The position numbers and the translations under genes were made by a program. 64,000 bases of DNA, taken from the NCBI RefSeq assembly GCF_009914755.1, contig NC_060938.1; one strand, written 5' to 3'. The notes beneath the pieces are model-generated. The model was given only the letters and a program-made list of their open reading frames with translations, had not been told where the DNA came from and did not search any database. Below are positions 239 through 48,810 of this stretch, one piece after another (positions within the stretch are counted from its first letter, which is position 1; each line of letters begins with the position of its first letter). The DNA is from the human T2T-CHM13v2.0 reference genome, Homo sapiens.

Positions 239-3220
239 ATGTCTGCACCTAAGAACAGTAGGGTCTTGTCTGGCTCTTCTTATGAACGGTCCCCCAGCCC
301 GGACTCCCCAAGGTCCATGCGAGCCTCACCCAGCTTCTCCCTCTCCCCTCTCAGAAACTCAGGCTTAAGGGGAAGCTCCTCACCAGGGATCGGGAGCTAC
401 CATTCACCATCCCCTAGGGCTTCACCACACTCACCTCTGTCATCACCAGAATCCCACAAGCTCCCATTTCCCTGTCCTCACCGTGATGGGCAATCAATAA
501 AGCCATTGGGCTCTCCCGTGTCCTCCTCTGAGGAATCCTCAGAGTCCCCACGTTCATCAATAATATACCACATGTTCTTACTGCCATCACCCAGCAGCTC
601 ACCCCCAGCTCTCGGGGGGTCTCCTGTGTCTCCCAGCTACTCTCCAAACAACCCCAGATTTCAGCTGCAGTCAGCCCCCCACAACAAGGAATCACCTACA
701 AACTCACGAGCCTCACGATGCTCCACCCCCTTGTCTTTCATCTCTTCACCCCCAGGCGTCAGGGTCTCTCCTGTGGCTCCCAGTTAGTCTCCAGCCATCC
801 GCAGGTTCCTGCGGGAGTCAGCCCCATGCACCCAGGAGTCCCCCAGAGACTCACAGGTCTCGGGAGAAAGTGAGCGGTCCCCCAGCCCTGACTCCTCAAG
901 ATTCATGCCTGCCTCACCCAGCTTCTCCCTCTCCCCTCCCAGAAACTCAGACCCAAGGGGCAGCTCCTCACCAGGGATGTGGAAGTCCTCTACATCATCC
1001 CGCAGGGCTTCACCACTCTCACATCCGTCATCAACAGAGTTCCACAACTTTACGTTTCCCTTTCCTAACCAAGCAGGACAATCACTCATGTCATTGTGTT
1101 CTCCCGTGACCTCCTCTGGAGATTCTTCACAGTCACCTCATTCATCAATAATATACCATATGTTCTTACTGCCATCATCCAGCAGCTCACCCCCAGCCAC
1201 CCATGACTCTCCTGTCTGTCCCAGCTACTCTCCAACTACGCCCAGATTTCAGCGGGAGTCTGTACCCCACACCCCAGAAACACCTACAAACTCACAGACC
1301 TCAGTGAGATCCTCGCCAGTCTCTCTCACGTCTTCACCCCCAGCCCTTACGGACCCTCCAGTCTGTCCCAGCTACTCTCCAACCACGCCCACATTTCAGC
1401 GCGGGTCAGTTCCAGGAACCCAGGGATCACCACCAAGCCCACCGCTTTCACTGAGTTACTCCCCAGTCTCTAGCACGTCTTTATCTCCAACCCTCAGGGA
1501 CTCGCCTGTCTGTCCCAGCTACTCTCCAAACACGCCCACACTTCAGCGGGAGTCCGTTGCAGGCACCCAGAAGTCACCACCAAACTCACCAATTTCACTG
1601 CGTTACTCCCCAGTCTCTCTCATGTCTTCACCATCCCTCAGGGACTCTCCCGTCTGTCCCAGCTACTCTCCAACCACGCCCACATTTCAGCTGGAGTCAG
1701 TTCCAGGCACCCCGGAATCACCACCAAACTCACCAATTTCACTCAGTTACTCCCCAGTCTCTAGCACGTCTTTATCTCCAACCCTCAGGGACTCTCCTGT
1801 GTGTCCCAGCTACTCTCCAACCACGCCCACACTTCAGCGGGAGTCAGTTCCAGGCACCCAGGAATCACCACCAAACTCACCAATTTCACTCAATTACTCT
1901 CCAGTCTCTCTCGTGTCTTCACCAGCCCTCAGGGACTCTCCTGTCTGTCCCAGCTACTCTACAACCACGCCCACATTTCAGCTGGAGTCAGTTCCAGGCA
2001 CCCCGGAGTCACCACCAAACTCACCAGTTTCACTCAGTTACTCCCCGGTCTCTCTCATGTCTTCACCCCCAGCCCTCAGGGACTCTCCTGTGCGTCCCAG
2101 CTACTCTCCAACCATGCCCAGATTCCAGCGGGAGTCAGTTCCAGGCACCCATGTATCACCACCAAACTCAGCAGTTTCACTGAGTTACTCCCCAGTCTCT
2201 CTCATGTCTTCACCCCCAGACCCCTGGGACTCTCCTGTCTGTCCCAGCTACTCTCCCACCACGCCCAGATTTCAGCAGCAGTCAGCCTCCCACACTCCGG
2301 AATCAGATACAGACTCACAGACTTCACTGAACTCCTCCCTGGTCTCTCTCAGGTCTTTGCCCTCATCCCACAGGGACTCTTGTGTCTCTTTCAGCTACTC
2401 TCAAAACTTCTCTAGATTCCAGCTGGAGTCAGTTCCAGGCACCCACGATACACCACCGAACTCACGAATTTCACTGACTTACGCCCCAGTCTCCCTCATG
2501 TTCTCACCCCCAGCCCTCAGGGACTCTTCTGTCTCTCTCAGCTACTCTCCAACCATCTCCAGATTTCACCTGGAGTCAGCTTCCCACACCCTGGAATCAC
2601 CTGCAAACTCACGGACCTTACTGCAACCATCCCCCATTTCTTTCACCTCTTCACCCCCTGCCTTCAGGGACTCTCCTGGGTCTCCCAGCTTCTCTCCAGC
2701 CTTCCCCAGATTTCTGCCACAGTCAGCCCCAGGCACCCAGGACAACCCTAGACACTCACAGGCCTCACCAGACTATCTCCCTATGACCTGTACCTATACA
2801 GGGATGGCTCCCACGCATCCCTCAGTGACCCCAAACCCATCTCCACTTACACTCAGGCACTCCCAGGGCCTGACAGCTACTCCCCGTTATTGTCCTTCAG
2901 TTCGAAGCCCTGGCCAATCTACTAGCCCACATGACGCAGTTACCTGGCCATTTCTCCACGGTTCCCGGGAGGGCCCCACACCCAGCCGCACAAGAGCCCC
3001 TCCTGCATTCCGTCCTCACACGCAGGCCTGTCCATCTACTTGCTACTGTCACACTCTTGCCAGCAGAAGAGGCCCCTGTAATGGCCGATATCACCACCCA
3101 GTCTATCCTCACCCCACAGCTGTGCAGCGGGAACCCCCTGCTGGCCCACGTGGCTGCCACAGCCCATGCTGGCACGACGCTCCAGCAGGTCGGCGTCCCT
3201 GCGGGCCAAACTACCGGTGA
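239..3220 (+). pseudogene. Copy 1 of Ser/Pro-rich YSPTTP-repeat ORF, nonsense at codon 183 (182 aa; downstream 771-aa ORF from 905)
   Basis: Same 2982-bp span as intact copies; TAC>TAG at 785-787. Confidence 0.7.
600..2780 (+). repeat. ACRO1-like 147-bp repeat inside the ORF (recurs in every unit)
   Basis: The 'a' of ccAgctactctcc falls at 635, 782, 1223, 1370, 1517, 1661, 1808, 1952, 2099, 2246, 2393, 2540 and 2687; consecutive monomers are 147 or 144 bp apart, except the 441-bp gap 782-1223. 147 bp is the ACRO1 monomer size. Confidence 0.85.
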
Positions 3221-5582: not shown

Positions 5583-6169
5583 TGCCATCCTCAGTCTGAC
5601 TAAAAGAATTTACCCAAACGGAATTTTAAAACAGATGAGCATAACTGGAATCTTAATTAGATGATTGGATTATCTGGAGCCACACCTTGATATTCCTAAC
5701 CCGAGCACCCTCATCCAACGAATGCTCCACCCAACTGGCTCCCAAGTCTCTACGTGGTTCCAGAGCAAAAGGATGTTGATACAACGCATATCTCCACCTT
5801 TTCTTCCAAGTCTTTTCGCTTACACGGAAAGACTTCTTCAACTGCCATGCATCAGGGTCAGGGGGAGGTCTTGTTACAACACAGATCTGCGGATCTCCGG
5901 CGTTTGACTGTGGCAAGGATGCTGCTGGTGTCAAAACCACAACGTGGGAACCACAGAACCACTAGTGGGTTTTCAGTGTTTCAGTGCATACAATTCCTAA
6001 TATATCTGGCTAAGAAAACTTGTAAGTTCTTAGATTGTCCCAAAGGTGGCGCACGAAATCAAAGCAGGAGAACAGTTTCCTACGAGGTGTAGCCTGGGAA
6101 AGTTGGGGGTGACTGATGGAAAGGAGGAGTGAAGCTCCACCCTTTCCGCTGCTAGGCTGCGCCCGAGGC

Positions 6170-6205
6170 TATTTAAACCCACCCTGGCTGGCCTGTACTC
6201 AGATC
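6170..6205 (+). promoter_or_regulatory. Putative core promoter: TATTTAAA (6170-6177) and Inr TCA+1GATC (A at 6201). TATA also at 24999, 31286, 37577; variant AATTTAAA at 12446, 18722
   Basis: TATA starts 31 nt before a YYANWYY match; CACCC/GC box upstream; CpG-rich first ~100 nt of the leader. Confidence 0.6.
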
Positions 6206-6326
6206 TTCGCGGAGCGGATCAGCGGCCGGAGCGTTTGGCGGACTCTGCGTGGACATGGAGCTCACAGCGTCTTGCGACTTGGAAGCGGATTCAGAGGACA
6301 GGACAGAACACTTGGACAAGTGAATC

Positions 6327-6357
<31 letters not shown>

Positions 6358-6526
6358 CATTGGTTGGTTGATTTCCATTTTCTTAAGGGGCACATACCTC
6401 ACACCGCACACACACAAACACACACACGCACACACACACACACACGCACACACACGCACACACACTCCTTCCTTCTGCGAGTTAGAACATTAGTAGGGGC
6501 CCCTGGGAGCTGCAGGTTTCCTAAAC

Positions 6527-9508
6527 ATGTCTGCACCTAAGAACAGTAGGGTCTTGTCTGGCTCTTCTTATGAACGGTCCCCCAGCCCGGACTCCCCAAG
6601 GTCCATGCGAGCCTCACCCAGCTTCTCCCTCTCCCCTCTCAGAAACTCAGGCTTAAGGGGAAGCTCCTCACCAGGGATCGGGAGCTACCATTCACCATCC
6701 CCTAGGGCTTCACCACACTCACCTCTGTCATCACCAGAATCCCACAAGCTCCCATTTCCCTGTCCTCACCGTGATGGGCAATCAATAAAGCCATTGGGCT
6801 CTCCCGTGTCCTCCTCTGAGGAATCCTCAGAGTCCCCACGTTCATCAATAATATACCACATGTTCTTACTGCCATCACCCAGCAGCTCACCCCCAGCTCT
6901 CGGGGGGTCTCCTGTGTCTCCCAGCTACTCTCCAAACAACCCCAGATTTCAGCTGCGGTCAGCCCCCCACACCAAGGAATCACCTACAAACTCACGAGCC
7001 TCACTTTTCTCCACCCCTGTGTCTTTCATCTCTTCACCCCCAGGCCTCAGGGACCCTCCTGTGGCTCCCAGTTACTCTCCAGCCATCCCCAGGTTCCTGC
7101 GCGAGTCAGCCCCATACACCCAGGAGTCCCCCAGAGACTCACAGGTCTTGGGAGATTATGAGCGGTCCCTCAGCCCTGACTCCTCAAGATTCATGCCTGC
7201 CTCACCCAGCTTCTCCCTCTCCCCTCCAAGAAACTCAGACCCAAGGGGCAGCTCCTCACCAGGGATGTGGAAGTCCTCTACATCATCCCGCAGGGCTTCA
7301 CCACTCTCACATCCGTCATCAACAGAATTCCACAACTTTACGTTTCCCTTTCCTAACCAAGCAGGACAGTCACTCATGTCATTGTGTTCTCCCGTGACCT
7401 CCTCTGGAGATTCTTCACAGTCACCTCATTCATCAATGATATACCATATGTTCTTACTGCCATCATCCAGCAGCTCACCCCCAGCCACCCATGACTCTCC
7501 TGTCTGTCCCAGCTACTCTCCAACTACGCCCAGATTTCAGCGGGAGTCTCTACCCCACACCCCAGAAACACCTACAAACTCACAGACCTCAGTGAGATCC
7601 TCGCCAGTCTCTCTCACGTCTTCACCCCCAGCCCTTACGGACCCTCCAGTCTGTCCCAGCTACTCTCCAACCACGCCCACATTTCAGCGCGGGTCAGTTC
7701 CAGGAACCCAGGGATCACCACCAAGCCCACCGCTTTCACTGAGTTACTCCCCAGTCTCTAGCACGTCTTTATCTCCAACCCTCAGGGACTCGCCTGTCTG
7801 TCCCAGCTACTCTCCAAACACGCCCACACTTCAGCGGGAGTCCGTTGCAGGCACCCAGAAGTCACCACCAAACTCACCAATTTCACTGCGTTACTCCCCA
7901 GTCTCTCTCATGTCTTCACCATCCCTCAGGGACTCTCCCGTCTGTCCCAGCTACTCTCCAACCACGCCCACATTTCAGCTGGAGTCAGTTCCAGGCACCC
8001 CGGAATCACCACCAAACTCACCAATTTCACTCAGTTACTCCCCAGTCTCTAGCACGTCTTTATCTCCAACCCTCAGGGACTCTCCTGTGTGTCCCAGCTA
8101 CTCTCCAACCACGCCCACACTTCAGCGGGAGTCAGTTCCAGGCACCCAGGAATCACCACCAAACTCACCAATTTCACTCAATTACTCTCCAGTCTCTCTC
8201 GTGTCTTCACCAGCCCTCAGGGACTCTCCTGTCTGTCCCAGCTACTCTACAACCACGCCCACATTTCAGCTGGAGTCAGTTCCAGGCACCCCGGAGTCAC
8301 CACCAAACTCACCAGTTTCACTCAGTTACTCCTCGGTCTCTCTCATGTCTTCACCCCCAGCCCTCAGGGACTCTCCTGTGCGTCCCAGCTACTCTCCAAC
8401 CATGCCCAGATTCCAGCGGGAGTCAGTTCCAGGCACCCATGTATCACCACCAAACTCAGCAGTTTCACTGAGTTACTCCCCAGTCTCTCTCATGTCTTCA
8501 CCCCCAGACCCCTGGGACTCTCCTGTCTGTCCCAGCTACTCTCCCACCACGCCCAGATTTCAGCGGCAGTCAGCCTCCCACACTCCGGAATCAGATACAG
8601 ACTCACAGACTTCACTGAACTCCTCCCTGGTCTCTCTCAGGTCTTTGCCCTCATCCCACAGGGACTCTTGTGTCTCTTTCAGCTACTCTCAAAACTTCTC
8701 TAGATTCCAGCTGGAGTCAGTTCCAGGCACCCACGATACACCACCGAACTCACGAATTTCACTGACTTACGCCCCAGTCTCCCTCATGTTCTCACCCCCA
8801 GCCCTCAGGGACTCTTCTGTCTCTCTCAGCTACTCTCCAACCATCTCCAGATTTCACCTGGAGTCAGCTTCCCACACCCTGGAATCACCTGCAAACTCAC
8901 GGACCTTACTGCAACCATCCCCCATTTCTTTCACCTCTTCACCCCCTGCCTTCAGGGACTCTCCTGGGTCTCCCAGCTTCTCTCCAGCCTTCCCCAGATT
9001 TCTGCCACAGTCAGCCCCAGGCACCCAGGACAACCCTAGACACTCACAGGCCTCACCAGACTATCTCCCTATGACCTGTACCTATACAGGGATGGCTCCC
9101 ACGCATCCCTCAGTGACCCCAAACCCATCTCCACTTACACTCAGGCACTCCCAGGGCCTGACAGCTACTCCCCGTTATTGTCCTTCAGTTCGAAGCCCTG
9201 GCCAATCTACTAGCCCACATGACGCAGTTACCTGGCCATTTCTCCACGGTTCCCGGGAGGGCCCCACACCCAGCCGCACAAGAGCCCCTCCTGCATTCCG
9301 TCCTCACACGCAGGCCTGTCCATCTACTTGCTACTGTCACACTCTTGCCAGCAGAAGAGGCCCCTGTAATGGCCGATATCACCACCCAGTCTATCCTCAC
9401 CCCACAGCTGTGCAGCGGGAACCCCCTGCTGGCCCACGTGGCTGCCACAGCCCATGCTGGCACGACGCTCCAGCAGGTCGGCGTCCCTGCGGGTCAAACT
9501 ACCGGTGA
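6527..9508 (+). CDS. Copy 2: intact 993-aa Ser/Pro-rich repeat protein with CTD-like PSYSPTTP motifs (putative)
   Basis: Uninterrupted ORF; AAACATGT start has A at -3; upstream TATA/Inr; downstream ATTAAA. Translation not demonstrated. Confidence 0.55.
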   Translation: MSAPKNSRVLSGSSYERSPSPDSPRSMRASPSFSLSPLRNSGLRGSSSPGIGSYHSPSPRASPHSPLSSPESHKLPFPCPHRDGQSIKPLGSPVSSSEESSESPRSSIIYHMFLLPSPSSSPPALGGSPVSPSYSPNNPRFQLRSAPHTKESPTNSRASLFSTPVSFISSPPGLRDPPVAPSYSPAIPRFLRESAPYTQESPRDSQVLGDYERSLSPDSSRFMPASPSFSLSPPRNSDPRGSSSPGMWKSSTSSRRASPLSHPSSTEFHNFTFPFPNQAGQSLMSLCSPVTSSGDSSQSPHSSMIYHMFLLPSSSSSPPATHDSPVCPSYSPTTPRFQRESLPHTPETPTNSQTSVRSSPVSLTSSPPALTDPPVCPSYSPTTPTFQRGSVPGTQGSPPSPPLSLSYSPVSSTSLSPTLRDSPVCPSYSPNTPTLQRESVAGTQKSPPNSPISLRYSPVSLMSSPSLRDSPVCPSYSPTTPTFQLESVPGTPESPPNSPISLSYSPVSSTSLSPTLRDSPVCPSYSPTTPTLQRESVPGTQESPPNSPISLNYSPVSLVSSPALRDSPVCPSYSTTTPTFQLESVPGTPESPPNSPVSLSYSSVSLMSSPPALRDSPVRPSYSPTMPRFQRESVPGTHVSPPNSAVSLSYSPVSLMSSPPDPWDSPVCPSYSPTTPRFQRQSASHTPESDTDSQTSLNSSLVSLRSLPSSHRDSCVSFSYSQNFSRFQLESVPGTHDTPPNSRISLTYAPVSLMFSPPALRDSSVSLSYSPTISRFHLESASHTLESPANSRTLLQPSPISFTSSPPAFRDSPGSPSFSPAFPRFLPQSAPGTQDNPRHSQASPDYLPMTCTYTGMAPTHPSVTPNPSPLTLRHSQGLTATPRYCPSVRSPGQSTSPHDAVTWPFLHGSREGPTPSRTRAPPAFRPHTQACPSTCYCHTLASRRGPCNGRYHHPVYPHPTAVQREPPAGPRGCHSPCWHDAPAGRRPCGSNYR

Positions 9509-12500
9509 CATGTCTAGCGTCACCCTCCTTCCTGGCAGTGACACTGTTGATGTGAACCCCAATTTCACATCTGTCATTTGTAAATAGGACCATTTTCCCT
9601 TTTCGCTCTCCCTTCCATTCACAGGGCTTTTCATTCTCTCTGTTACTGCCTCCGTTTCAGATATTTACTCACCTTTTTCTCTCTCACTATGTCTGCCGTG
9701 GGCTACATGAGAGTGCGCCACATAAGATTCCCCCATTAAAAGTCATGAATTGAGTGGCTTTTAGTATACCTGTGATTGTGCACATTCAAATTTAATTCGC
9801 AATTCATTGTAGAACGTCTTATCACTCCCGGCCAGAGAAAAACCCTGTAGACATTAGTCACTCCTCATTCTGTCTCAAACCCTCTCCCTCACCCGCAGCC
9901 CTAGGTAGCAACTACCTAGTGCGATCAATCCCATATGCATAGATTACCATATTGTGGACATTTCCTATAAGCGGAATTGCACAATAGGGGAGCTGTTATG
10001 ACTGACATAACACGTAACACAATATTTTCAAGATTCGTCCACATTGTAGGCTTACCCACAGGGGGAAACCATTTTTTTGGGGACTTTTAGTAACACCGGT
10101 GTTTTCTCCTTCTTTACGTCCTTCTTTCCTTCCTTCCTTCCTTCCTTCCTTCCTGACTTCCTTCTTTCCTTCCCTCCTTCCTCCTATTTCTCTCTTACTC
10201 CTTCTGCCCTCTCTCTTTCCTATGCCTTAGGTGCATCCCACATTCTGCGTTTTTTTGGGGAAATCCTCGACAGGTGCAGGAAAATTGTGTTGTTGTAACT
10301 ATTTACCGTTATCTCTCTTTCACGGCTCTCCATCAGTTGTGAACATCTATTGGTTTATCCCAAGTCTCTAAGCATATTTTCATTAGGTAAACCTGTTTTT
10401 CCTTATACAGCTGTTTCTGGAGTATAGGGTCGCATACTCTTAAACCCAGTGTAACTCAGAAACGCATCTAATATTCCAGTAAACCCATCATAACGTTGAA
10501 AAATCGTAAATCAAACCATCATAAGTCACGGTTTGTCCGTGGATATGGGCCTCATCAATTCCATTGTATTCAGTAATGCTGTACACCATTAACAATGGCA
10601 GACTGATTGGGAGTGGATATTGATAGCATTATAAAAGTCAGTTATTAGAGGGATACTTCTTTAACCTGACTGAAGAACTGATCTAATGGCTTTAGTACAG
10701 TGCATGATTATGTGCGATGTTTTGAGACAGAGTAGTACATTTGTGAATGAAATTTTATGGCTTTTTTTTTCACTTAGTAGGAACCATTGTGTGTGGAAAA
10801 GTGAGAAAATGGCTTTCTGCTGTAGGGTCTGGCATTCATTGTGATGTAAGCTTATTTTTCTGTGAGCAAATCTTATTCAATAAAATACTACTCTTTATAC
10901 TAAAAAACAAAAACAGTGGTGATGTGTGGTCATTATCCTCAGCAAACTTATCCAGGGAAAGAAAACCAAACGCCACAACTCACTTATAATGGGAGCTGAA
11001 AAATGAGATCCCATGGACACAGGAAGGGGAACAACACACACTGGGGCCTTCCGGGAGACAGAGCGTTAAGAAAAACAGCTACTGCATGCTGGGATTAATA
11101 CCTAGGTGATGGGTTGACAGGTGCAGCAAACCACCATGGCACACGTTTACCTTAGTAACAAATCTGCACATCCTGCACATATACCCCAGAACTTAGGAAC
11201 GAAACGAAACAAAAGACAACGAAAAAGCAACAGCAAAACGCTAAAGGCAAAATAAAGTTTCAAACTGAGAAAGTGACAGACCAACGTCTGGTTCAAATCA
11301 TGGTTCTCAACCCAGGTGCCATAAGGTCAGGATAAAGGATGTGATTACATATTGTCAATAAGACATGCAGCAAATGACCAGAATGATTATTCTCAACATA
11401 TGAGTGTCTTCTAATTCAATGGCGACGCTATCTACCGGGACATAGCATTAGATTCCAAAGGGCCGAGTCCCGCCAGACAGGCCTCCCACACTAATAACAA
11501 TGGGAAGCCCTACGTTGCTTTACCTGTACTTCTCAGCCACTGGCTATAAATCAGGTTGCCACCACTCCCAGATTTAGTTGCATTCATTTGCTGGAAGAGC
11601 TCACAGCACGCAGGGAAACACATTTGCCGTTGTATTTTAGCGGACATTGCACAAAGTTCAGAAATAAATGTGGGGCCCGGCATGTGGGGAGGGGCGCACT
11701 ACCTTCCAGGAAGTGCTATCCAGAAGCTCTCTGAACCCAGTCCTTTTGGGTTTTGATGGAGACCTCATTCTATAGGCATGATGGGTTAAACCATAGGCTA
11801 TTGGTGATCAACTCCACCTGGGGCTCTCCACCCTCCCTGGAAATTGGGGTTGAGGCTTTGCCATCCTCAGTCTGACTAAAAGAATTTACCCAAACGGAAT
11901 TTTAAAACAGATGAGCATAACTGGAATCTTAATTAGATGATTGGATTATCTGGAGCCACACCTTGATATTCCTAACCCGAGCACCCTCATCCAACGAATG
12001 CTCCACCCAACTGGCTCCCAAGTCTCTACGTGGTTCCAGAGCAAAAGGATGTTGATACAACGCATATCTCCACCTTTTCTTCAAAGTCTTTTCGCTTACA
12101 CGGAAAGACTTCTTCAACTGCCATGCATCAGGGTCAGGGGGAGGTCTTGTTACAACACAGATCTGCGGATCTCCGGCATTTGACTGTGGCAAGGATGCTG
12201 CTGGTGTCAAAACCACAACGTGGGAACCACAGAACCACTAGTGGGTTTTCAGTGTTTCAGTGCATACAATTCCTAATATATCTGGCTAAGAAAACTTGTA
12301 AGTTCTTAGATTGTCCCAAAGGTGGCGCATGAAATCAAAGCAGGAGAACAGTTTCCTACGAGGTGTAGCCTGGGAAAGTTGGGGGTGACTGATGGAAAGG
12401 AGGAGTGAAGCTCCACCCTTTCCGCTGCTAGGCTGCGCCCGAGGCAATTTAAACCCACCCTGGCTGGCCTGTACTCAGATCTTCGCGGAGCGGATCAGCG

Positions 12501-12802: not shown

Positions 12803-15784
12803 ATGTCTGCACCTAAGAACAGTAGGGTCTTGTCTGGCTCTTCTTATGAACGGTCCCCCAGCCCGGACTCCCCAAGGTCCATGCGAGCCTCACCCAGCTT
12901 CTCCCTCTCCCCTCTCAGAAACTCAGGCTTAAGGGGAAGCTCCTCACCAGGGATCGGGAGCTACCATTCACCATCCCCTAGGGCTTCACCACACTCACCT
13001 CTGTCATCACCAGAATCCCACAAGCTCCCATTTCCCTGTCCTCACCGTGATGGGCAATCAATAAAGCCATTGGGCTCTCCCGTGTCCTCCTCTGAGGAAT
13101 CCTCAGAGTCCCCACGTTCATCAATAATATACCACATGTTCTTACTGCCATCACCCAGCAGCTCACCCCCAGCTCTCGGGGGGTCTCCTGTGTCTCCCAG
13201 CTACTCTCCAAACAACCCCAGATTTCAGCTGCGGTCAGCCCCCCACACCAAGGAATCACCTACAAACTCACCAGCCTCACGCTGCTCCACCCCTGTGTCT
13301 TTCATCTCTTCACCCCCAGGCCTCAGGGACCCTCCTGTGGCTCCCAGTTACTCTCCAGCCATCCCCAGGTTCCTGCGCGAGTCAGCCCCATACACCCAGG
13401 AGTCCCCCAGAGACTCACAGGTCTTGGGAGATTATGAGCGGTCCCTCAGCCCTGACTCCTCAAGATTCATGCCTGCCTCACCCAGCTTCTCCCTCTCCCC
13501 TCCCAGAAACTCAGACCCAAGGGGCAGCTCCTCACCAGGGATGTGGAAGTCCTCTACATCATCCCGCAGGGCTTCACCACTCTCACATCCGTCATCAACA
13601 GAATTCCACAACTTTACGTTTCCCTTTCCTAACCAAGCAGGACAGTCACTCATGTCATTGTGTTCTCCCGTGACCTCCTCTGGAGATTCTTCACAGTCAC
13701 CTCATTCATCAATAATATACCATATGTTCTTACTGCCATCATCCAGCAGCTCACCCCCAGCCACCCATGACTCTCCTGTCTGTCCCAGCTACTCTCCAAC
13801 TACGCCCAGATTTCAGCGGGAGTCTCTACCCCACACCCCAGAAACACCTACAAACTCACAGACCTCAGTGAGATCCTCGCCAGTCTCTCTCACGTCTTCA
13901 CCCCCAGCCCTTACGGACCCTCCAGTCTGTCCCAGCTACTCTCCAACCACGCCCACATTTCAGCGCGGGTCAGTTCCAGGAACCCAGGGATCACCACCAA
14001 GCCCACCGCTTTCACTGAGTTACTCCCCAGTCTCTAGCACGTCTTTATCTCCAACCCTCAGGGACTCGCCTGTCTGTCCCAGCTACTCTCCAAACACGCC
14101 CACACTTCAGCGGGAGTCCGTTGCAGGCACCCAGAAGTCACCACCAAACTCACCAATTTCACTGCGTTACTCCCCAGTCTCTCTCATGTCTTCACCATCC
14201 CTCAGGGACTCTCCCGTCTGTCCCAGCTACTCTCCAACCACGCCCACATTTCAGCTGGAGTCAGTTCCAGGCACCCCGGAATCACCACCAAACTCACCAA
14301 TTTCACTCAGTTACTCCCCAGTCTCTAGCACGTCTTTATCTCCAACCCTCAGGGACTCTCCTGTGTGTCCCAGCTACTCTCCAACCACGCCCACACTTCA
14401 GCGGGAGTCAGTTCCAGGCACCCAGGAATCACCACCAAACTCACCAATTTCACTCAATTACTCTCCAGTCTCTCTCGTGTCTTCACCAGCCCTCAGGGAC
14501 TCTCCTGTCTGTCCCAGCTACTCTACAACCACGCCCACATTTCAGCTGGAGTCAGTTCCAGGCACCCCGGAGTCACCACCAAACTCACCAGTTTCACTCA
14601 GTTACTCCTCGGTCTCTCTCATGTCTTCACCCCCAGCCCTCAGGGACTCTCCTGTGCGTCCCAGCTACTCTCCAACCATGCCCAGATTCCAGCGGGAGTC
14701 AGTTCCAGGCACCCATGTATCACCACCAAACTCAGCAGTTTCACTGAGTTACTCCCCAGTCTCTCTCATGTCTTCACCCCCAGACCCCTGGGACTCTCCT
14801 GTCTGTCCCAGCTACTCTCCCACCACGCCCAGATTTCAGCGGGAGTCAGCCTCCCACACTCCGGAATCAGATACAGACTCACAGACTTCACTGAACTCCT
14901 CCCTGGTCTCTCTCAGGTCTTTGCCCTCATCCCACAGGGACTCTTGTGTCTCTTTCAGCTACTCTCAAAACTTCTCTAGATTCCAGCTGGAGTCAGTTCC
15001 AGGCACCCACGATACACCACCGAACTCACGAATTTCACTGACTTACGCCCCAGTCTCCCTCATGTTCTCACCCCCAGCCCTCAGGGACTCTTCTGTCTCT
15101 CTCAGCTACTCTCCAACCATCTCCAGATTTCACCTGGAGTCAGCTTCCCACACCCTGGAATCACCTGCAAACTCACGGACCTTACTGCAACCATCCCCCA
15201 TTTCTTTCACCTCTTCACCCCCTGCCTTCAGGGACTCTCCTGGGTCTCCCAGCTTCTCTCCAGCCTTCCCCAGATTTCTGCCACAGTCAGCCCCAGGCAC
15301 CCAGGACAACCCTAGACACTCACAGGCCTCACCAGACTATCTCCCTATGACCTGTACCTATACAGGGATGGCTCCCACGCATCCCTCAGTGACCCCAAAC
15401 CCATCTCCACTTACACTCAGGCACTCCCAGGGCCTGACAGCTACTCCCCGTTATTGTCCTTCAGTTCGAAGCCCTGGCCAATCTACTAGCCCACATGACG
15501 CAGTTACCTGGCCATTTCTCCACGGTTCCCGGGAGGGCCCCACACCCAGCCGCACAAGAGCCCCTCCTGCATTCCGTCCTCACACGCAGGCCTGTCCATC
15601 TACTTGCTACTGTCACACTCTTGCCAGCAGAAGAGGCCCCTGTAATGGCCGATATCACCACCCAGTCTATCCTCACCCCACAGCTGTGCAGCGGGAAGCC
15701 CCTGCTGGCCCACGTGGCTGCCACAGCCCATGCTGGCACGACGCTCCAGCAGGTCGGCGTCCCTGCGGGCCAAACTACCGGTGA
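12803..15784 (+). CDS. Copy 3: intact 993-aa Ser/Pro-rich repeat protein (putative)
   Basis: Uninterrupted 2982-bp ORF. Confidence 0.55.
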   Translation: MSAPKNSRVLSGSSYERSPSPDSPRSMRASPSFSLSPLRNSGLRGSSSPGIGSYHSPSPRASPHSPLSSPESHKLPFPCPHRDGQSIKPLGSPVSSSEESSESPRSSIIYHMFLLPSPSSSPPALGGSPVSPSYSPNNPRFQLRSAPHTKESPTNSPASRCSTPVSFISSPPGLRDPPVAPSYSPAIPRFLRESAPYTQESPRDSQVLGDYERSLSPDSSRFMPASPSFSLSPPRNSDPRGSSSPGMWKSSTSSRRASPLSHPSSTEFHNFTFPFPNQAGQSLMSLCSPVTSSGDSSQSPHSSIIYHMFLLPSSSSSPPATHDSPVCPSYSPTTPRFQRESLPHTPETPTNSQTSVRSSPVSLTSSPPALTDPPVCPSYSPTTPTFQRGSVPGTQGSPPSPPLSLSYSPVSSTSLSPTLRDSPVCPSYSPNTPTLQRESVAGTQKSPPNSPISLRYSPVSLMSSPSLRDSPVCPSYSPTTPTFQLESVPGTPESPPNSPISLSYSPVSSTSLSPTLRDSPVCPSYSPTTPTLQRESVPGTQESPPNSPISLNYSPVSLVSSPALRDSPVCPSYSTTTPTFQLESVPGTPESPPNSPVSLSYSSVSLMSSPPALRDSPVRPSYSPTMPRFQRESVPGTHVSPPNSAVSLSYSPVSLMSSPPDPWDSPVCPSYSPTTPRFQRESASHTPESDTDSQTSLNSSLVSLRSLPSSHRDSCVSFSYSQNFSRFQLESVPGTHDTPPNSRISLTYAPVSLMFSPPALRDSSVSLSYSPTISRFHLESASHTLESPANSRTLLQPSPISFTSSPPAFRDSPGSPSFSPAFPRFLPQSAPGTQDNPRHSQASPDYLPMTCTYTGMAPTHPSVTPNPSPLTLRHSQGLTATPRYCPSVRSPGQSTSPHDAVTWPFLHGSREGPTPSRTRAPPAFRPHTQACPSTCYCHTLASRRGPCNGRYHHPVYPHPTAVQREAPAGPRGCHSPCWHDAPAGRRPCGPNYR

Positions 15785-19078: not shown

Positions 19079-22060
19079 ATGTCTGCACCTAAGAACAGTA
19101 GGGTCTTGTCTGGCTCTTCTTATGAACGGTCCCCCAGCCCGGACTCCCCAAGGTCCATGCGAGCCTCACCCAGCTTCTCCCTCTCCCCTCTCAGAAACTC
19201 AGGCTTAAGGGGAAGCTCCTCACCAGGGATCGGGAGCTACCATTCACCATCCCCTAGGGCTTCACCACACTCACCTCTGTCATCACCAGAATCCCACAAG
19301 CTCCCATTTCCCTGTCCTCACCGTGATGGGCAATCAATAAAGCCATTGGGCTCTCCCGTGTCCTCCTCTGAGGAATCCTCAGAGTCCCCACGTTCATCAA
19401 TAATATACCACATGTTCTTACTGCCATCACCCAGCAGCTCACCCCCAGCTCTCGGGGGGTCTCCTGTGTCTCCCAGCTACTCTCCAAACAACCCCAGATT
19501 TCAGCTGCGGTCAGCCCCCCACACCAAGGAATCACCTACAAACTCACCAGCCTCACGCTGCTCCACCCCTGTGTCTTTCATCTCTTCACCCCCAGGCCTC
19601 AGGGACCCTCCTGTGGCTCCCAGTTACTCTCCAGCCATCCCCAGGTTCCTGCGCGAGTCAGCCCCATACACCCAGGAGTCCCCCAGAGACTCACAGGTCT
19701 TGGGAGATTATGAGCGGTCCCTCAGCCCTGACTCCTCAAGATTCATGCCTGCCTCACCCAGCTTCTCCCTCTCCCCTCCCAGAAACTCAGACCCAAGGGG
19801 CAGCTCCTCACCAGGGATGTGGAAGTCCTCTACATCATCCCGCAGGGCTTCACCACTCTCACATCCGTCATCAACAGAATTCCACAACTTTACGTTTCCC
19901 TTTCCTAACCAAGCAGGACAGTCACTCATGTCATTGTGTTCTCCCGTGACCTCCTCTGGAGATTCTTCACAGTCACCTCATTCATCAATAATATACCATA
20001 TGTTCTTACTGCCATCATCCAGCAGCTCACCCCCAGCCACCCATGACTCTCCTGTCTGTCCCAGCTACTCTCCAACTACGCCCAGATTTCAGCGGGAGTC
20101 TCTACCCCACACCCCAGAAACACCTACAAACTCACAGACCTCAGTGAGATCCTCGCCAGTCTCTCTCACGTCTTCACCCCCAGCCCTTACGGACCCTCCA
20201 GTCTGTCCCAGCTACTCTCCAACCACGCCCACATTTCAGCGCGGGTCAGTTCCAGGAACCCAGGGATCACCACCAAGCCCACCGCTTTCACTGAGTTACT
20301 CCCCAGTCTCTAGCACGTCTTTATCTCCAACCCTCAGGGACTCGCCTGTCTGTCCCAGCTACTCTCCAAACACGCCCACACTTCAGCGGCAGTCCGTTGC
20401 AGGCACCCAGAAGTCACCACCAAACTCACCAATTTCACTGCGTTACTCCCCAGTCTCTCTCATGTCTTCACCATCCCTCAGGGACTCTCCCGTCTGTCCC
20501 AGCTACTCTCCAACCACGCCCACATTTCAGCTGGAGTCAGTTCCAGGCACCCCGGAATCACCACCAAACTCACCAATTTCACTCAGTTACTCCCCAGTCT
20601 CTAGCACGTCTTTATCTCCAACCCTCAGGGACTCTCCTGTGTGTCCCAGCTACTCTCCAACCACGCCCACACTTCAGCGGGAGTCAGTTCCAGGCACCCA
20701 GGAATCACCACCAAACTCACCAATTTCACTCAATTACTCTCCAGTCTCTCTCGTGTCTTCACCAGCCCTCAGGGACTCTCCTGTCTGTCCCAGCTACTCT
20801 ACAACCACGCCCACATTTCAGCTGGAGTCAGTTCCAGGCACCCCGGAGTCACCACCAAACTCACCAGTTTCACTCAGTTACTCCTCGGTCTCTCTCATGT
20901 CTTCACCCCCAGCCCTCAGGGACTCTCCTGTGCGTCCCAGCTACTCTCCAACCATGCCCAGATTCCAGCGGGAGTCAGTTCCAGGCACCCATGTATCACC
21001 ACCAAACTCAGCAGTTTCACTGAGTTACTCCCCAGTCTCTCTCATGTCTTCACCCCCAGACCCCTGGGACTCTCCTGTCTGTCCCAGCTACTCTCCCACC
21101 ACGCCCAGATTTCAGCGGCAGTCAGCCTCCCACACTCCGGAATCAGATACAGACTCACAGACTTCACTGAACTCCTCCCTGGTCTCTCTCAGGTCTTTGC
21201 CCTCATCCCACAGGGACTCTTGTGTCTCTTTCAGCTACTCTCAAAACTTCTCTAGATTCCAGCTGGAGTCAGTTCCAGGCACCCACGATACACCACCGAA
21301 CTCACGAATTTCACTGACTTACGCCCCAGTCTCCCTCATGTTCTCACCCCCAGCCCTCAGGGACTCTTCTGGCTCTCTCAGCTACTCTCCAACCATCTCC
21401 AGATTTCACCTGGAGTCAGCTTCCCACACCCTGGAATCACCTGCAAACTCACGGACCTTACTGCAACCATCCCCCATTTCTTTCACCTCTTCACCCCCTG
21501 CCTTCAGGGACTCTCCTGGGTCTCCCAGCTTCTCTCCAGCCTTCCCCAGATTTCTGCCACAGTCAGCCCCAGGCACCCAGGACAACCCTAGACACTCACA
21601 GGCCTCACCAGACTATCTCCCTATGACCTGTACCTATACAGGGATGGCTCCCACGCATCCCTCAGTGACCCCAAACCCATCTCCACTTACACTCAGGCAC
21701 TCCCAGGGCCTGACAGCTACTCCCCGTTATTGTCCTTCAGTTCGAAGCCCTGGCCAATCTACTAGCCCACATGACGCAGTTACCTGGCCATTTCTCCACG
21801 GTTCCCGGGAGGGCCCCACACCCAGCCGCACAAGAGCCCCTCCTGCATTCCGTCCTCACACGCAGGCCTGTCCATCTACTTGCTACTGTCACACTCTTGC
21901 CAGCAGAAGAGGCCCCTGTAATGGCCGATATCACCACCCAGTCTATCCTCACCCCACAGCTGTGCAGCGGGAACCCCCTGCTGGCCCACGTGGCTGCCAC
22001 AGCCCATGCTGGCACGACGCTCCAGCAGGTCGGCGTCCCTGCGGGCCAAACTACCGGTGA
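19079..22060 (+). CDS. Copy 4: intact 993-aa Ser/Pro-rich repeat protein (putative)
   Basis: Uninterrupted 2982-bp ORF. Confidence 0.55.
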   Translation: MSAPKNSRVLSGSSYERSPSPDSPRSMRASPSFSLSPLRNSGLRGSSSPGIGSYHSPSPRASPHSPLSSPESHKLPFPCPHRDGQSIKPLGSPVSSSEESSESPRSSIIYHMFLLPSPSSSPPALGGSPVSPSYSPNNPRFQLRSAPHTKESPTNSPASRCSTPVSFISSPPGLRDPPVAPSYSPAIPRFLRESAPYTQESPRDSQVLGDYERSLSPDSSRFMPASPSFSLSPPRNSDPRGSSSPGMWKSSTSSRRASPLSHPSSTEFHNFTFPFPNQAGQSLMSLCSPVTSSGDSSQSPHSSIIYHMFLLPSSSSSPPATHDSPVCPSYSPTTPRFQRESLPHTPETPTNSQTSVRSSPVSLTSSPPALTDPPVCPSYSPTTPTFQRGSVPGTQGSPPSPPLSLSYSPVSSTSLSPTLRDSPVCPSYSPNTPTLQRQSVAGTQKSPPNSPISLRYSPVSLMSSPSLRDSPVCPSYSPTTPTFQLESVPGTPESPPNSPISLSYSPVSSTSLSPTLRDSPVCPSYSPTTPTLQRESVPGTQESPPNSPISLNYSPVSLVSSPALRDSPVCPSYSTTTPTFQLESVPGTPESPPNSPVSLSYSSVSLMSSPPALRDSPVRPSYSPTMPRFQRESVPGTHVSPPNSAVSLSYSPVSLMSSPPDPWDSPVCPSYSPTTPRFQRQSASHTPESDTDSQTSLNSSLVSLRSLPSSHRDSCVSFSYSQNFSRFQLESVPGTHDTPPNSRISLTYAPVSLMFSPPALRDSSGSLSYSPTISRFHLESASHTLESPANSRTLLQPSPISFTSSPPAFRDSPGSPSFSPAFPRFLPQSAPGTQDNPRHSQASPDYLPMTCTYTGMAPTHPSVTPNPSPLTLRHSQGLTATPRYCPSVRSPGQSTSPHDAVTWPFLHGSREGPTPSRTRAPPAFRPHTQACPSTCYCHTLASRRGPCNGRYHHPVYPHPTAVQREPPAGPRGCHSPCWHDAPAGRRPCGPNYR

Positions 22061-47900: not shown

Positions 47901-48810
47901 ATGATATTACTCCACATATCACAGGGAGTGTTACATCCCCTGTAATATTGTTCATAATATTTAGAAGACGACAGGATGATATTACTCCCAATATAGTAGG
48001 AAGTATACACTACCCTGTGATACTGTTCATAATTTTTAGGGGATTAGAGGATGATATTACTTCCAATATCACAGGGAGTGTACACTGGTGATATTGTTTA
48101 TAATTTTCAGTGGATTAGAAGATATTATTCCGAATATCACAGGGGTTGTACATCCCCAAGTGATATTGTTAATATCCAGTGGGGAAGAGGATGTTATTAC
48201 TCCCCATATCACGGGGGATGTAAACCCGTTTGTGGTATTGTCACTTACATCCGGGGGGTAGAGGATGATATTACTCTGCATATCATAGAGGGTGCACACG
48301 GCTGTAATGTTGTCCATAATAACATCCAGAGGGGAAGAGAATATTATTCCCATGTTTCAGAAGGTGTACACACCCCTGGGATAGTCTCTGTAACATTTAG
48401 GGAAGAAGGGGATGATACTACTCCAGATATTGCAGGGGGTGTACACCCCCCTGTGATACTGTTCGTAACGTTTAGGGGGAAGAGGATGATATTACTCCCC
48501 ATATCGAAGGGATTGTACATCTCCCTATATATTGTCCATAACATCCAGGACAGGAGAGGATATTACTACTCCCCATATCACAGGAGGTGGACAACCCCCT
48601 CTAAATATGTCTAACATCCAGGCGGGGACAGGAGGATATTTTTCCCCATAACCTAGAGAAAGTAAACCTCCTGCGATTTTGTCCATAACATCCAGTGGGG
48701 AGAGGATGATATCACTCCCCATATTGCAGGGGGTGCACACTCCACTCTGATATTGGCCATAATATCCGGGGGGGGTGAAGTATGAAGTCACTACACATAT
48801 CGCAGGGATT
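44961..48810. repeat. SATR1/SATR2-like satellite with ~72-bp monomer and internal strand switches
   Basis: Monomer ggatattaggaacaatatcacagggggtgtacaccccctgcgatattgggagtaatatcatcctctcccc repeated dozens of times. Confidence 0.8.

What the first reader, a model, noticed from the sequence alone, without database searches (positions are those of the whole stretch)
6170..9740. The ACRO-type satellite unit is built like a complete protein-coding gene, suggesting a hidden tandem gene family
Seen in sequence: each ~6.28-kb unit has TATTTAAA 31 nt before an Inr match and a CpG-rich start. The ~326-nt leader has no ATG in copies 3-7, so the first ATG (AAACATG, A at -3) opens the long ORF. ATTAAA follows ~227 nt after the stop. 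The start-to-stop span is exactly 2982 bp in all six full copies, while unit length varies from 6273 to 6295 bp through indels outside it. Established: this type of unit is usually catalogued as satellite/composite repeat and masked. Inference: it is a multicopy single-exon-CDS gene array, analogous to D4Z4/DUX4 or RS447/USP17, hidden by masking and multi-mapping reads.
Basis: partly seen in the sequence, partly recalled or inferred. Interest (0 to 1): 0.92.

Follow-up and report, generated by a model that had tools for sequence, protein, structure and literature searches.

The report
Gene-like unit in acrocentric ACRO repeat
Each 6.3-kb unit of the human acrocentric 'ACRO' satellite carries a promoter-like start, a roughly 1000-codon reading frame that has stayed open across primates, and a polyadenylation signal, so it is probably a hidden many-copy gene of the very early embryo, although no protein has yet been shown.

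Summary
The anatomy is real but overstated. A 2982-nt span (993 codons, 6527-9508) recurs in six full units. Only 3 of those 6 are open; the others carry TAG at codon 183 or TGA at codon 663. TATTTAAA is the minority form (9 of 36 units; 25 read AATTTAAA).

The frame is not a chance product:
- It has 0 internal stops, against 13 and 17 in the other sense frames.
- Old internal duplications show no stop and no frameshift.
- 97 of 114 scored copies genome-wide keep an open frame of at least 890 aa.
- Start and end recur in a marmoset model, a solitary 358-aa short form on chr2, and a distant unnamed 355-aa relative.

Substitution patterns nevertheless look neutral: dN/dS is 0.84-1.34 in six paralogue comparisons, and nonsense variants among array units occur at the neutral rate. 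There is no Pfam domain and no confident fold.

Each unit has a perfect DUX4-type motif about 510 bp upstream. Published work reports DUX4-induced, poly(A)+ ACRO1 RNA at the 4-cell stage.

The idea is partly in print: CTD-like in-silico translation (2020), one sentence calling it a "putative protein coding gene" (2025), and 'RPB1-like' models in monkeys.

Verdict: a gene-derived macrosatellite, probably still coding (about 0.55). Translation is unproven.

The parts
5662..5672 (-). Perfect match to the DUX4-type motif TAAYYBAATCA (TAATCCAATCA), about 510 bp upstream of the TATA-like box of copy 2. It occurs once per unit.
   Evidence: 6 matches in the window, one per unit, against 0.58 expected and none of 100 shuffles reaching 6; 36 of 36 units. 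The motif consensus is recalled, not taken from a call.
6140..6339 (+). Short CpG-rich patch around the putative start site.
   Evidence: 14 CpG in 200 bp, observed/expected 0.82. Most other 200-bp windows of the unit are at or below 0.62.
6170..6177 (+). TATA-like octamer TATTTAAA. It reads AATTTAAA in most units.
   Evidence: 9 of 36 units TATTTAAA, 25 of 36 AATTTAAA.
6199..6205 (+). Initiator-like match TCAGATC (YYANWYY) with A at 6201, 31 nt from the first T of the octamer. This is the putative transcription start.
   Evidence: The consensus is recalled. No 5'-end data were available.
6201..6526 (+). Putative 326-nt leader holding (GTCT)n at about 6326-6357 and a CA-rich microsatellite at about 6400-6465. 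It is ATG-free in most units.
   Evidence: 32 of 34 units ATG-free; 17 of 2000 shuffles ATG-free.
6527..9508 (+). 993-codon ORF plus TGA. The product is 23.5% Ser and 18.1% Pro, with 81 SP and 17 TP dipeptides.
6569..7744 (+). Old in-frame internal duplication of 588 nt: codons 15-210 against codons 211-406.
   Evidence: 76% identity, 0 indels, 0 stops in frame 0 (3-4 per copy in each other frame), dN/dS 0.65.
7481..9061 (+). Main run of ACRO1 147-bp subrepeats read as 49-codon (or 48-codon) units, each made of 7 CTD-like heptads. Two further units lie at 6893-7150.
9062..9505 (+). Non-repeat, Cys/His-rich C-terminal region (codons 846-993) with the conserved core CPSTCYCHTLA.
   Evidence: It has the lowest variant density of the unit (19 of 447 columns). 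No confident fold.
9735..9740 (+). ATTAAA, 227 nt after the stop. This is the putative poly(A) signal.
   Evidence: 36 of 36 units.
239..3220 (+). Copy 1 of the ORF span, broken by TAG at codon 183.
12803..15784 (+). Copy 3, an open 993-codon ORF.
19079..22060 (+). Copy 4, an open 993-codon ORF.
25352..28333 (+). Copy 5, broken by TAG at codon 183.
31643..34624 (+). Copy 6, broken by TGA at codon 663.
37938..39671 (+). Copy 7. The array ends inside the ACRO1 subrepeats, leaving a 577-codon ORF stump.

Best explanation
The ACRO unit is a gene-derived macrosatellite. An ancestral short gene consisted of a Ser/Pro-rich N-terminus, one 49-residue unit of seven Pol II CTD-like heptads, and a Cys/His-rich C-terminus. 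A solitary 358-aa copy of this form still stands at chr2:161.74 Mb. The gene grew by in-frame expansion of its 147-bp unit and was then amplified as a 6.3-kb unit on the acrocentric short arms and on chr3 and chr4.

Each unit keeps a DUX4-type site, a TATA-like box with an initiator, an ATG-free leader, the ORF and an ATTAAA signal.

Shown here: the frame, its start and its end have been kept open over deep divergence, while the amino-acid sequence drifts at about the neutral rate.

Inferred: selection acts on being translated through, and on length and composition, as for a disordered low-complexity protein. It acts on the array as a whole, so single units can decay.

My proposal: a roughly 3.5-kb intronless mRNA starts near 6201, ends after 9740, and is translated in cleavage-stage embryos. 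Translation itself has not been shown.
For: Stops by frame:
- Frame 0 has 0 internal stops, against 13 and 17 in the other sense frames.
- For the 13 subrepeats, 276 random substitutions from their consensus give a mean of 9.4 frame-0 stops, with 0 of 3000 runs stop-free. Observed is 0. Frame 2, used as a control, is expected at 7.1 and observed at 5.

Frame-keeping in old duplications:
- All subrepeat lengths are multiples of 3.
- The 588-nt internal duplication is 76% identical, with 0 indels and 0 stops.

The 35-unit comparison:
- The CDS has 202 substitutions and 0 indels.
- Flanks of about 3000 bp have 209 substitutions and 15 indel blocks, of which I class 7 as non-repeat. By hand, (209/411)^7 is about 0.009.

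Diverged copies:
- chr22 proximal copy: 90 differences in 2835 nt, an intact 945-aa ORF, and an in-frame loss of 48 codons.
- chr4 copy: 104 differences, 0 indels, one stop at codon 973.
- chr2 short form: an intact 358 aa ending at the same ...HYR.
- chr19 copy: 165 differences in 2454 nt, 828 open codons, and both indels in-frame.

Genome-wide: 97 of 114 scored copies keep an open frame of at least 890 aa, and lengths step by whole units.

Relatives:
- A marmoset 832-aa model with the same start and C-terminus.
- An unnamed 355-aa relative that is 47% identical over the C-terminus, shares the core CPSTCYCHTLA, and ends within 2 residues of the human end.

Gene-like anatomy.

Expression, from passages in PMC6545021, PMC5832720, PMC8990217 and 10.64898/2025.12.22.696056.
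Against: - dN/dS is not below 1: 1.31 (chr4), 1.08 (chr22 distal), 1.34 (chr21), 0.84 (chr22 proximal), 0.91 (chr2) and 0.86 (chr19). Out-of-frame control readings range from 0.33 to 1.63.
- Differences are spread evenly over codon positions, for example 33/35/36 for chr4.
- Subrepeat pN/pS is 0.87, against 1.00 and 0.85 in the control frames.
- Variants among units are 148 nonsynonymous, 49 synonymous and 5 nonsense, against 138.5, 56.1 and 7.4 expected under neutrality.
- 8 of 34 chr14 units and 3 of 6 window units carry a nonsense codon.
- No Pfam family matches at E up to 1.
- The C-terminal model has mean pLDDT 55 and pTM 0.12, with no secondary structure.
- The two Old World monkey models are frameshifted after about residue 250.
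- There is no RefSeq model in this window (hub table).
- Boots et al. found no stable ACRO1 transcript in HeLa, and report that ACRO1 RNA blocks Pol II elongation in cis.
- Database relatives are ORFs by construction, and predicted models may have been patched.
- The expected number of indels rests on a small sample from the flanks.
Confidence: 0.55

Rival explanations
1. Relic ORF in a non-coding satellite. The unit descends from a real gene, but the amplified copies now act only as DNA or RNA: a Pol II-binding aptamer RNA that attenuates its own transcription, early-embryo heterochromatin or nucleolar organisation. The frame is a slowly decaying leftover.
For: Substitution patterns are neutral in every paralogue comparison. 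Nonsense alleles have spread to 2-3 units each. An RNA-level activity was shown experimentally (PMC7714431, sections 7 and 9). There is no domain and no fold.
Against: The frame is stop-free and frameshift-free across internal duplications that are 10-25% diverged. The marmoset model keeps about 600 collinear in-frame residues. The distant 355-aa relative keeps both start and end. The chr19 copy, 6.7% diverged, has only 1 frameshift and 2 stops in about 950 codons. The leader is depleted of ATG. A relic should decay faster than this.
Confidence: 0.33
2. The frame is kept open for an RNA-level reason, with no functional product. For example, passage of ribosomes might stabilise or export the transcript, or the C-rich aptamer sequence might be constrained in a way that happens to exclude stops in one register.
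For: The sense strand is 40% C and has few stops in all three sense frames (0, 13, 17), against 44-93 on the other strand. Unnamed database ORFs run 180 aa or more in the +1 register of the subrepeats. SELEX reads map 1029 sense to 1 antisense (PMC7714431, Table 2, seen).
Against: Frame 2 has a stop-free consensus too, yet it gained 5 stops while frame 0 gained none. The non-repeat N- and C-terminal parts are also open, and their ends are conserved.
Confidence: 0.08
3. The ORF is a chance product of composition and of copying a stop-free 147-bp unit.
For: Tandem copying spreads an open unit, and the composition is stop-poor.
Against: Stop-free frame 0 appeared in 0 of 3000 neutral simulations. 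About 470 codons lie outside the main subrepeat run and are also open. The termini are conserved in diverged copies and relatives.
Confidence: 0.04

Closest known systems
D4Z4 macrosatellite / DUX4
   Same: A multi-kb tandem unit, amplified in primates and present on acrocentric short arms. Each unit carries an intronless ORF with its own promoter-like start. It is silenced in somatic cells and active at the cleavage stage. ACRO1 is reported as a DUX4 target, and each unit holds a DUX4-type motif.
   Different: DUX4 has two homeodomains under clear constraint and a known function. The ACRO ORF has no recognised domain and dN/dS near 1. From recall, D4Z4 depends on a poly(A) signal beyond the last unit, whereas every ACRO unit has its own ATTAAA.
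RS447 megasatellite / USP17L
   Same: A tandem unit of several kb, each encoding one intronless ORF, catalogued as a satellite and variable in copy number (from recall).
   Different: USP17 is a folded enzyme of a known family. The ACRO product is predicted to be disordered and has no family.
ACRE / ACRO1 Pol II-binding RNA aptamers (Boots et al. 2020, PMC7714431)
   Same: This is the same element: a 6-kb higher-order unit holding 147-bp ACRO1 arrays. That paper already noted that the translated consensus resembles the CTD, with 23 of 49 residues identical.
   Different: The abstract, the term-search passages and sections 7 and 9 that I read translate only the 147-bp consensus and treat the element as RNA. 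In those parts I saw no full-length ORF, start, stop, promoter, poly(A) signal, C-terminal region or short form.
RNA polymerase II RPB1 C-terminal heptad domain
   Same: The units have heptad periodicity: 38.5% of SP-SP spacings are multiples of 7, against 14.6% in shuffles. The only PDB sequence matches are RPB1 CTDs, the best at E 4.7e-6. NCBI names the monkey models 'RPB1(-like)'.
   Different: PF05001 does not match, and none of the RPB1 catalytic domains is present. The PDB match carries a heavy composition bias, and human or bovine RPB1 reaches only E 0.4-0.95. This is a resemblance, not membership.
Mucin-type Pro/Thr/Ser tandem-repeat exons
   Same: Long in-frame tandem repeats whose copy number changes by whole units. 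The frame and composition are kept while the residues drift (from recall).
   Different: The ACRO ORF shows no signal peptide or secretory context. It sits inside a macrosatellite.

Membership tests
Protein-coding gene (evolutionary criteria) | A long ORF kept open beyond chance. | tested here: met
   0 internal stops against 13 and 17; 0 of 3000 neutral simulations stop-free; 97 of 114 copies with at least 890 open codons.
Protein-coding gene (evolutionary criteria) | Purifying selection on residues (dN/dS clearly below 1, excess of third-position changes). | tested here: not met
   dN/dS is 0.84-1.34 in six paralogue pairs, no different from the out-of-frame controls. Only the old internal duplication gives 0.65, with differences by codon position of 36/49/56.
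Protein-coding gene (evolutionary criteria) | Start and stop positions conserved in diverged relatives. | tested here: met
   The MSAP... start recurs in marmoset, Papio, Piliocolobus and unnamed records. The end lies within 2-3 residues in the chr2 short form and in the distant 355-aa relative.
Protein-coding gene (experimental criteria) | A capped, polyadenylated transcript with the predicted ends; ribosome footprints; peptides. | not testable with these tools
   [quoted passage not shown] A full-text search for a 9-residue peptide found 0 papers.
Macrosatellite gene array (D4Z4/DUX4, RS447/USP17 kind) | Tandem units of several kb, each holding a complete ORF. | tested here: met
Macrosatellite gene array (D4Z4/DUX4, RS447/USP17 kind) | The product belongs to a known functional protein family. 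| tested here: not met
   Pfam gives 0 families. The AlphaFold2 model of the C-terminal region has mean pLDDT 55.
DUX4 target | A DUX4 recognition motif near the promoter. | tested here: met
   TAATCCAATCA occurs once per unit, about 510 bp upstream, in 36 of 36 units. The chr2 copy has the variant TAATTCAATCA. The consensus is recalled.
DUX4 target | DUX4 occupancy and DUX4-dependent transcription from this promoter. | not testable with these tools
   Induction of 'ACRO1' RNA is stated in passages of PMC8990217 and 10.64898/2025.12.22.696056. I did not read the primary papers.
RPB1 CTD heptad repeat (PF05001) | A match to the family model. | tested here: not met
   One search gave no family at E up to 1. 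The whole-genome scan with PF05001 matched nothing anywhere, including the controls, so it is uninformative.
RPB1 CTD heptad repeat (PF05001) | Seven-residue periodicity of SP motifs. | tested here: met
   38.5%, against a shuffle mean of 14.6% and a maximum of 27.7% in 500 shuffles.

The most novel reading that the evidence does not exclude
The ACRO arrays are a family of more than 100 genes. At embryonic genome activation they make a protein of about 105 kDa or larger carrying some 90 Pol II CTD-like heptads and 98 SP/TP sites. This protein would act as a CTD mimic: a decoy or scaffold for CTD kinases, phosphatases and CTD-binding factors, or a client of Pol II condensates. Its own mRNA binds Pol II and limits its output. 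Together these would form a primate-specific, DUX4-driven brake or tuner of the first wave of transcription, encoded on the nucleolar-organiser chromosomes.
Probability: 0.15. Interest if true: 0.9.

Novelty: new member of a known kind. Interest (0 to 1): 0.66.

Why it matters
If the ORF is translated, the human genome holds an unannotated, primate-specific gene family of more than 100 copies on the acrocentric short arms, chr3 and chr4. It would be switched on by DUX4 at genome activation, and possibly in FSHD muscle and some tumours where ACRO1 RNA is reported. Its product imitates the Pol II tail. That would add a candidate effector to the DUX4 programme and give a function to the repeat class most specific to acrocentric chromosomes. 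It would also explain why the copy number of these arrays is worth tracking. If the ORF is not translated, it remains a clear case of a gene turned into a satellite whose frame outlives its constraint on residues, and a warning for ORF-based annotation of T2T assemblies.

Tried and rejected
- Pfam scan of the 993-aa product: 0 families.
- Rfam scan of the whole window: 0 matches.
- Whole-genome scan with PF05001, meant to fetch the true RPB1 CTD for a DNA-level comparison: nothing matched, even in the controls, so it is uninformative. The question of descent from POLR2A is left open.
- AlphaFold2 on the C-terminal 154 residues with a 10-row alignment: mean pLDDT 55, pTM 0.12, no secondary structure. 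No fold search was made.
- Bacterial-type promoter and terminator scan: irrelevant to a human locus and disregarded.
- First BLASTN figure for the chr22 proximal copy (91.6% identity, 20 gaps): this was a register slip caused by a missing subrepeat. The codon alignment gives 3.2% divergence.
- A transition/transversion difference between CDS and flanks as a sign of subrepeat conversion: rejected, because the ratio is near 1 everywhere.
- dN/dS tests on six paralogue pairs, the subrepeats and the array variants: no coding signal.
- Search for a separate parent gene in the human genome with the distant relative as query: only ACRO copies and the chr2 short form appeared.
- Named relatives of the distant short form: none beyond those already found.
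- Full-text search for a 9-residue peptide: 0 papers.
- A pattern search of the genome failed and was replaced by a DNA search.
Full report
**What is there**

The window (human T2T chr14:186001-250000, per the hub note) begins inside a tandem array. Its start-codon anchors lie at 239, 6527, 12803, 19079, 25352, 31643 and 37938, giving units of 6273-6295 bp. The array ends near 39.6 kb, inside the seventh unit.

Each unit holds a 2982-nt span from ATG to TGA. In copy 2 (6527-9508) this reads as 993 codons. Inside the span, Tandem Repeats Finder sees 10.6 copies of a 147-bp unit at about 80% identity. This is the ACRO1 satellite. The whole 6-kb unit is the 'ACRO' composite, also called 'ACRE', of the literature (passages in 10.64898/2025.12.22.696095; PMC7714431 section 7).

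Most of it holds for copy 2:
- TATTTAAA is at 6170, and an initiator-like match has its A at 6201, 31 nt downstream.
- There is a 200-bp CpG patch with 14 CpG, observed/expected 0.82.
- The start context is AAACATG.
- ATTAAA lies 227 nt after the stop.
- The span is 2982 nt in all six full copies.

Three points do not hold or were left out:
- Only copies 2-4 are open. Copies 1 and 5 have TAG at codon 183 and copy 6 has TGA at codon 663.
- TATTTAAA is the minority form. Over 36 units (32 from chr14, one each from chr4 and chr21, two from chr22), 25 read AATTTAAA, 9 read TATTTAAA and 2 did not match my pattern.
- Of the 7 indel sites that make the window's units differ in length, 2 are microsatellites and 2 are homopolymer runs.

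The leader is ATG-free in 32 of 34 units. That is seen in only 17 of 2000 shuffles, or 37 of 2000 without the microsatellites.

**Is the frame more than chance?**

Frame 0 has no internal stop. The other two sense frames have 13 and 17, and the opposite strand has 93, 44 and 47.

The ORF is built from old duplications. There are 13 units of 49 or 48 codons, and a 588-nt duplication of codons 15-210 onto codons 211-406.
- I placed the 276 observed differences from the subrepeat consensus at random. This gave a mean of 9.4 stops in frame 0, and no stop-free run among 3000. The observed number is 0.
- The same substitutions gave 5 stops in frame 2, whose consensus is also stop-free, where 7.1 were expected. 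Shared ancestry of units makes the events fewer than 276, so the true P is larger than the simulation suggests.
- The 588-nt duplication is 76% identical, with no indel and no stop in frame 0. The other frames hold 3-4 stops per copy.

**Copies elsewhere in the genome**

A protein search of the window's own genome scored 46 copies:
- 26 of 34 on chr14 have no internal stop, and 8 have one.
- 9 of 9 on chr22 are open.
- 3 of 3 on chr21 are open.

A second search, using a distant relative as query, scored 114 matches to the C-terminal part. Of these, 97 sit in an open frame of at least 890 aa. Frame lengths such as 1003, 1052, 1101, 1145, 1248, 1317 and 1387 step by about one subrepeat. The arrays lie on chr3 (95.75-95.85 Mb), chr4 (49.24-49.29 Mb), chr13, chr14, chr15, chr21 and chr22. 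Solitary copies lie on chr1, chr2, chr19 and chr20.

I fetched six diverged copies:

| Copy | Differences from chr14 copy 2 | State of the frame |
|---|---|---|
| chr4 | 104 of 2982 nt | no indel, one stop at codon 973 |
| chr22 distal | 36 | open |
| chr21 | 40 | open |
| chr22 proximal | 90 of 2835 nt | intact 945-aa ORF, lacks exactly 48 codons |
| chr2:161.74 Mb (short form) | 56 of 1074 nt | intact 358-aa ORF, same start and same end |
| chr19 | 165 of 2454 nt | see below |

The chr2 short form consists of the N-terminus, about 1.5 units and the C-terminus. It has its own TATTTAAA, initiator match and ATG-free leader.

The chr19 copy has one frameshift near residue 80, a stop near residue 110 and a stop 17 codons before the end. 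Between them 828 codons are open, and both indels there are in-frame (+10 and -49 codons).

Across 35 aligned units the CDS has 202 substitutions and no indel. About 3000 bp of flanks have 209 substitutions and 15 indel blocks. I class these as 5 microsatellite, 2 long homopolymer, 1 alignment-end artefact and 7 ordinary. By hand, (209/411)^7 is about 0.009.

**The evidence against coding**

The substitution pattern carries no coding signature.
- Nei-Gojobori dN/dS against chr14 is 1.31 (chr4), 1.08 (chr22 distal), 1.34 (chr21), 0.84 (chr22 proximal), 0.91 (chr2) and 0.86 (chr19).
- The same alignments read out of frame give 0.33-1.63, so frame 0 is not special.
- Differences fall evenly on codon positions (33/35/36 for chr4).
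- Subrepeats give pN/pS 0.87, against 1.00 and 0.85 in the control frames.
- Only the old 588-nt duplication hints at constraint, with dN/dS 0.65 and differences by position of 36/49/56.
- Among the 35 units, the variants are 148 nonsynonymous, 49 synonymous and 5 nonsense. With matched mutation classes, 138.5, 56.1 and 7.4 are expected. Nonsense alleles have spread to 2-3 units.
- The C-terminal non-repeat part has the lowest variant density: 19 of 447 columns, against 126 of 1533 downstream and 83 of 1525 upstream. In the chr19 comparison it is 92.5% identical, against 88.2% for the 3' flank. Its dN/dS there is 1.49 on 26 changes.
- Transitions and transversions are about equal everywhere in the unit. 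I cannot explain this.

**Relatives outside the genome**

The product matches no Pfam family. The only matches among solved structures are RPB1 C-terminal domains (best E 4.7e-6, with strong composition bias).

SP dipeptides recur with a 7-residue period: 38.5% of spacings, against 14.6% in shuffles. The 49-residue unit is therefore seven CTD-like heptads, as Boots et al. noted for the consensus.

The large protein collections hold:
- an 832-aa marmoset model named 'RPB1', with the same start and the same C-terminal region. About 600 residues are collinear at 60% identity, and one stretch reads in the +1 register;
- 282- and 291-aa 'RPB1-like' models from Papio and Piliocolobus, which are frameshifted after about residue 250;
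- unnamed records, including intact shorter variants of 652 and 361 aa;
- Plasmodium ovale 'proteins' 90-94% identical to the human sequence. I take these for human contamination, a known problem for ACRO1 (passage in PMC6581058).

The C-terminal 154 residues have only 14 relatives among 1.84 billion representatives. One is an unnamed 355-aa ORF with an N-terminal Ser/Pro-rich part, a single unit and the C-terminal part. It is 47% identical over that part, keeps the core CPSTCYCHTLA, and ends within two residues of the human end.

At that divergence a neutral sequence would not stay open. However, database proteins are ORFs by construction, and I have no DNA for them.

AlphaFold2 gives no confident fold for the C-terminal part (mean pLDDT 55).

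**Regulation**

Each unit has one perfect match to the DUX4-type motif, about 510 bp upstream of the TATA-like box. That is 6 of 6 in the window and 36 of 36 units. The motif consensus is recalled.

From passages I read:
- DUX4 activates ACRO1 transcription (PMC8990217; 10.64898/2025.12.22.696056).
- ACRO1 RNA peaks at the 4-cell stage in single-cell data that the authors describe as poly(A)-selected (PMC6545021).
- ACRO1 is hypomethylated in spermatogonial stem cells and sperm, and its RNA rises in the early embryo (PMC5832720).
- Boots et al. found no stable transcript in HeLa. They showed that sense ACRO1 inserts block Pol II elongation in cis.

None of these papers maps transcript ends on the unit.

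**Reading**

The frame, its start and its end are conserved far beyond what neutral decay allows, while residues drift freely and single units decay. The simplest account is a gene-derived macrosatellite under array-level selection for a translatable, Ser/Pro-rich, disordered product whose length and composition matter more than its sequence. I put this at about 0.55.

The main rival is that the arrays are now only RNA or DNA elements carrying a slowly decaying relic frame. It explains the neutral substitution pattern better and the open frame worse. I put it at about 0.33.

**What is in print**

- The 6-kb unit and the CTD-like translation of the 147-bp consensus are published (PMC7714431).
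- The ape acrocentric preprint treats ACRO as a satellite and discusses other amplified genes.

My searches found no paper that describes the full-length ORF, its promoter-like start, the DUX4 motif, the C-terminal region or the chr2 short form. Subscription journals and supplements were not covered.

Noticed in passing
G000 chr2:161739833-161740909 (locus L035, 1334-2410): A solitary short-form copy with an intact 358-aa ORF (N-terminus, about 1.5 units, C-terminus). It has its own TATTTAAA, initiator match and ATG-free leader. Homology to the ACRO unit runs at least 1.37 kb upstream and stops 53 nt after the stop codon, at an Alu. It is a possible parent locus of the whole family.
   Followed up: partly
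G000 chr15:101-152 kb and chr21:207-221 kb: Distal arrays on chr15 and chr21 carry open frames of 1145-1387 aa, that is, several more in-frame subrepeats than the chr14 units. Product length therefore differs between chromosomes.
   Followed up: no
window 10115-10160 and equivalent places in each unit: A (TTCC)n = (GGAA)n microsatellite whose length varies between units. ACRO1 RNA is reported as raised in plasma vesicles of Ewing sarcoma patients. In the same paper, EWS:FLI1 expression in HeLa did not change it (PMC11060741).
   Followed up: no
whole unit, 35-unit alignment: Transitions and transversions are about equal among unit variants in the CDS and in both flanks (198 to 213 in all). This is far from the roughly 2:1 usual for human variation (recalled). 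It is unexplained; the cause may be the mutation process, conversion or assembly error.
   Followed up: partly
window 486-640 of the CDS (codons 144-215; about 6956-7171): Differences between the window's units cluster here: 23 of the 46 variant rows listed fall in these 72 codons. This suggests a conversion tract from a diverged copy.
   Followed up: no
window 10980-11240: A stretch that reads like the 3' end of an L1 element followed by an A-rich tail, in the same orientation as the ORF. This is my reading of the sequence, and it agrees with the Dfam parts named in 10.64898/2025.12.22.696095.
   Followed up: no
window 45132-47194 and 47839-48762: Degenerate tandem arrays with a 74-76-bp period (27.7 and 10-12 copies, 67-68% matches) just distal to the ACRO array. 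The unit contains an internal inverted repeat.
   Followed up: no
window 43796-44428: A 210-aa ORF overlapping two 97%-identical copies of a 126-bp repeat.
   Followed up: no
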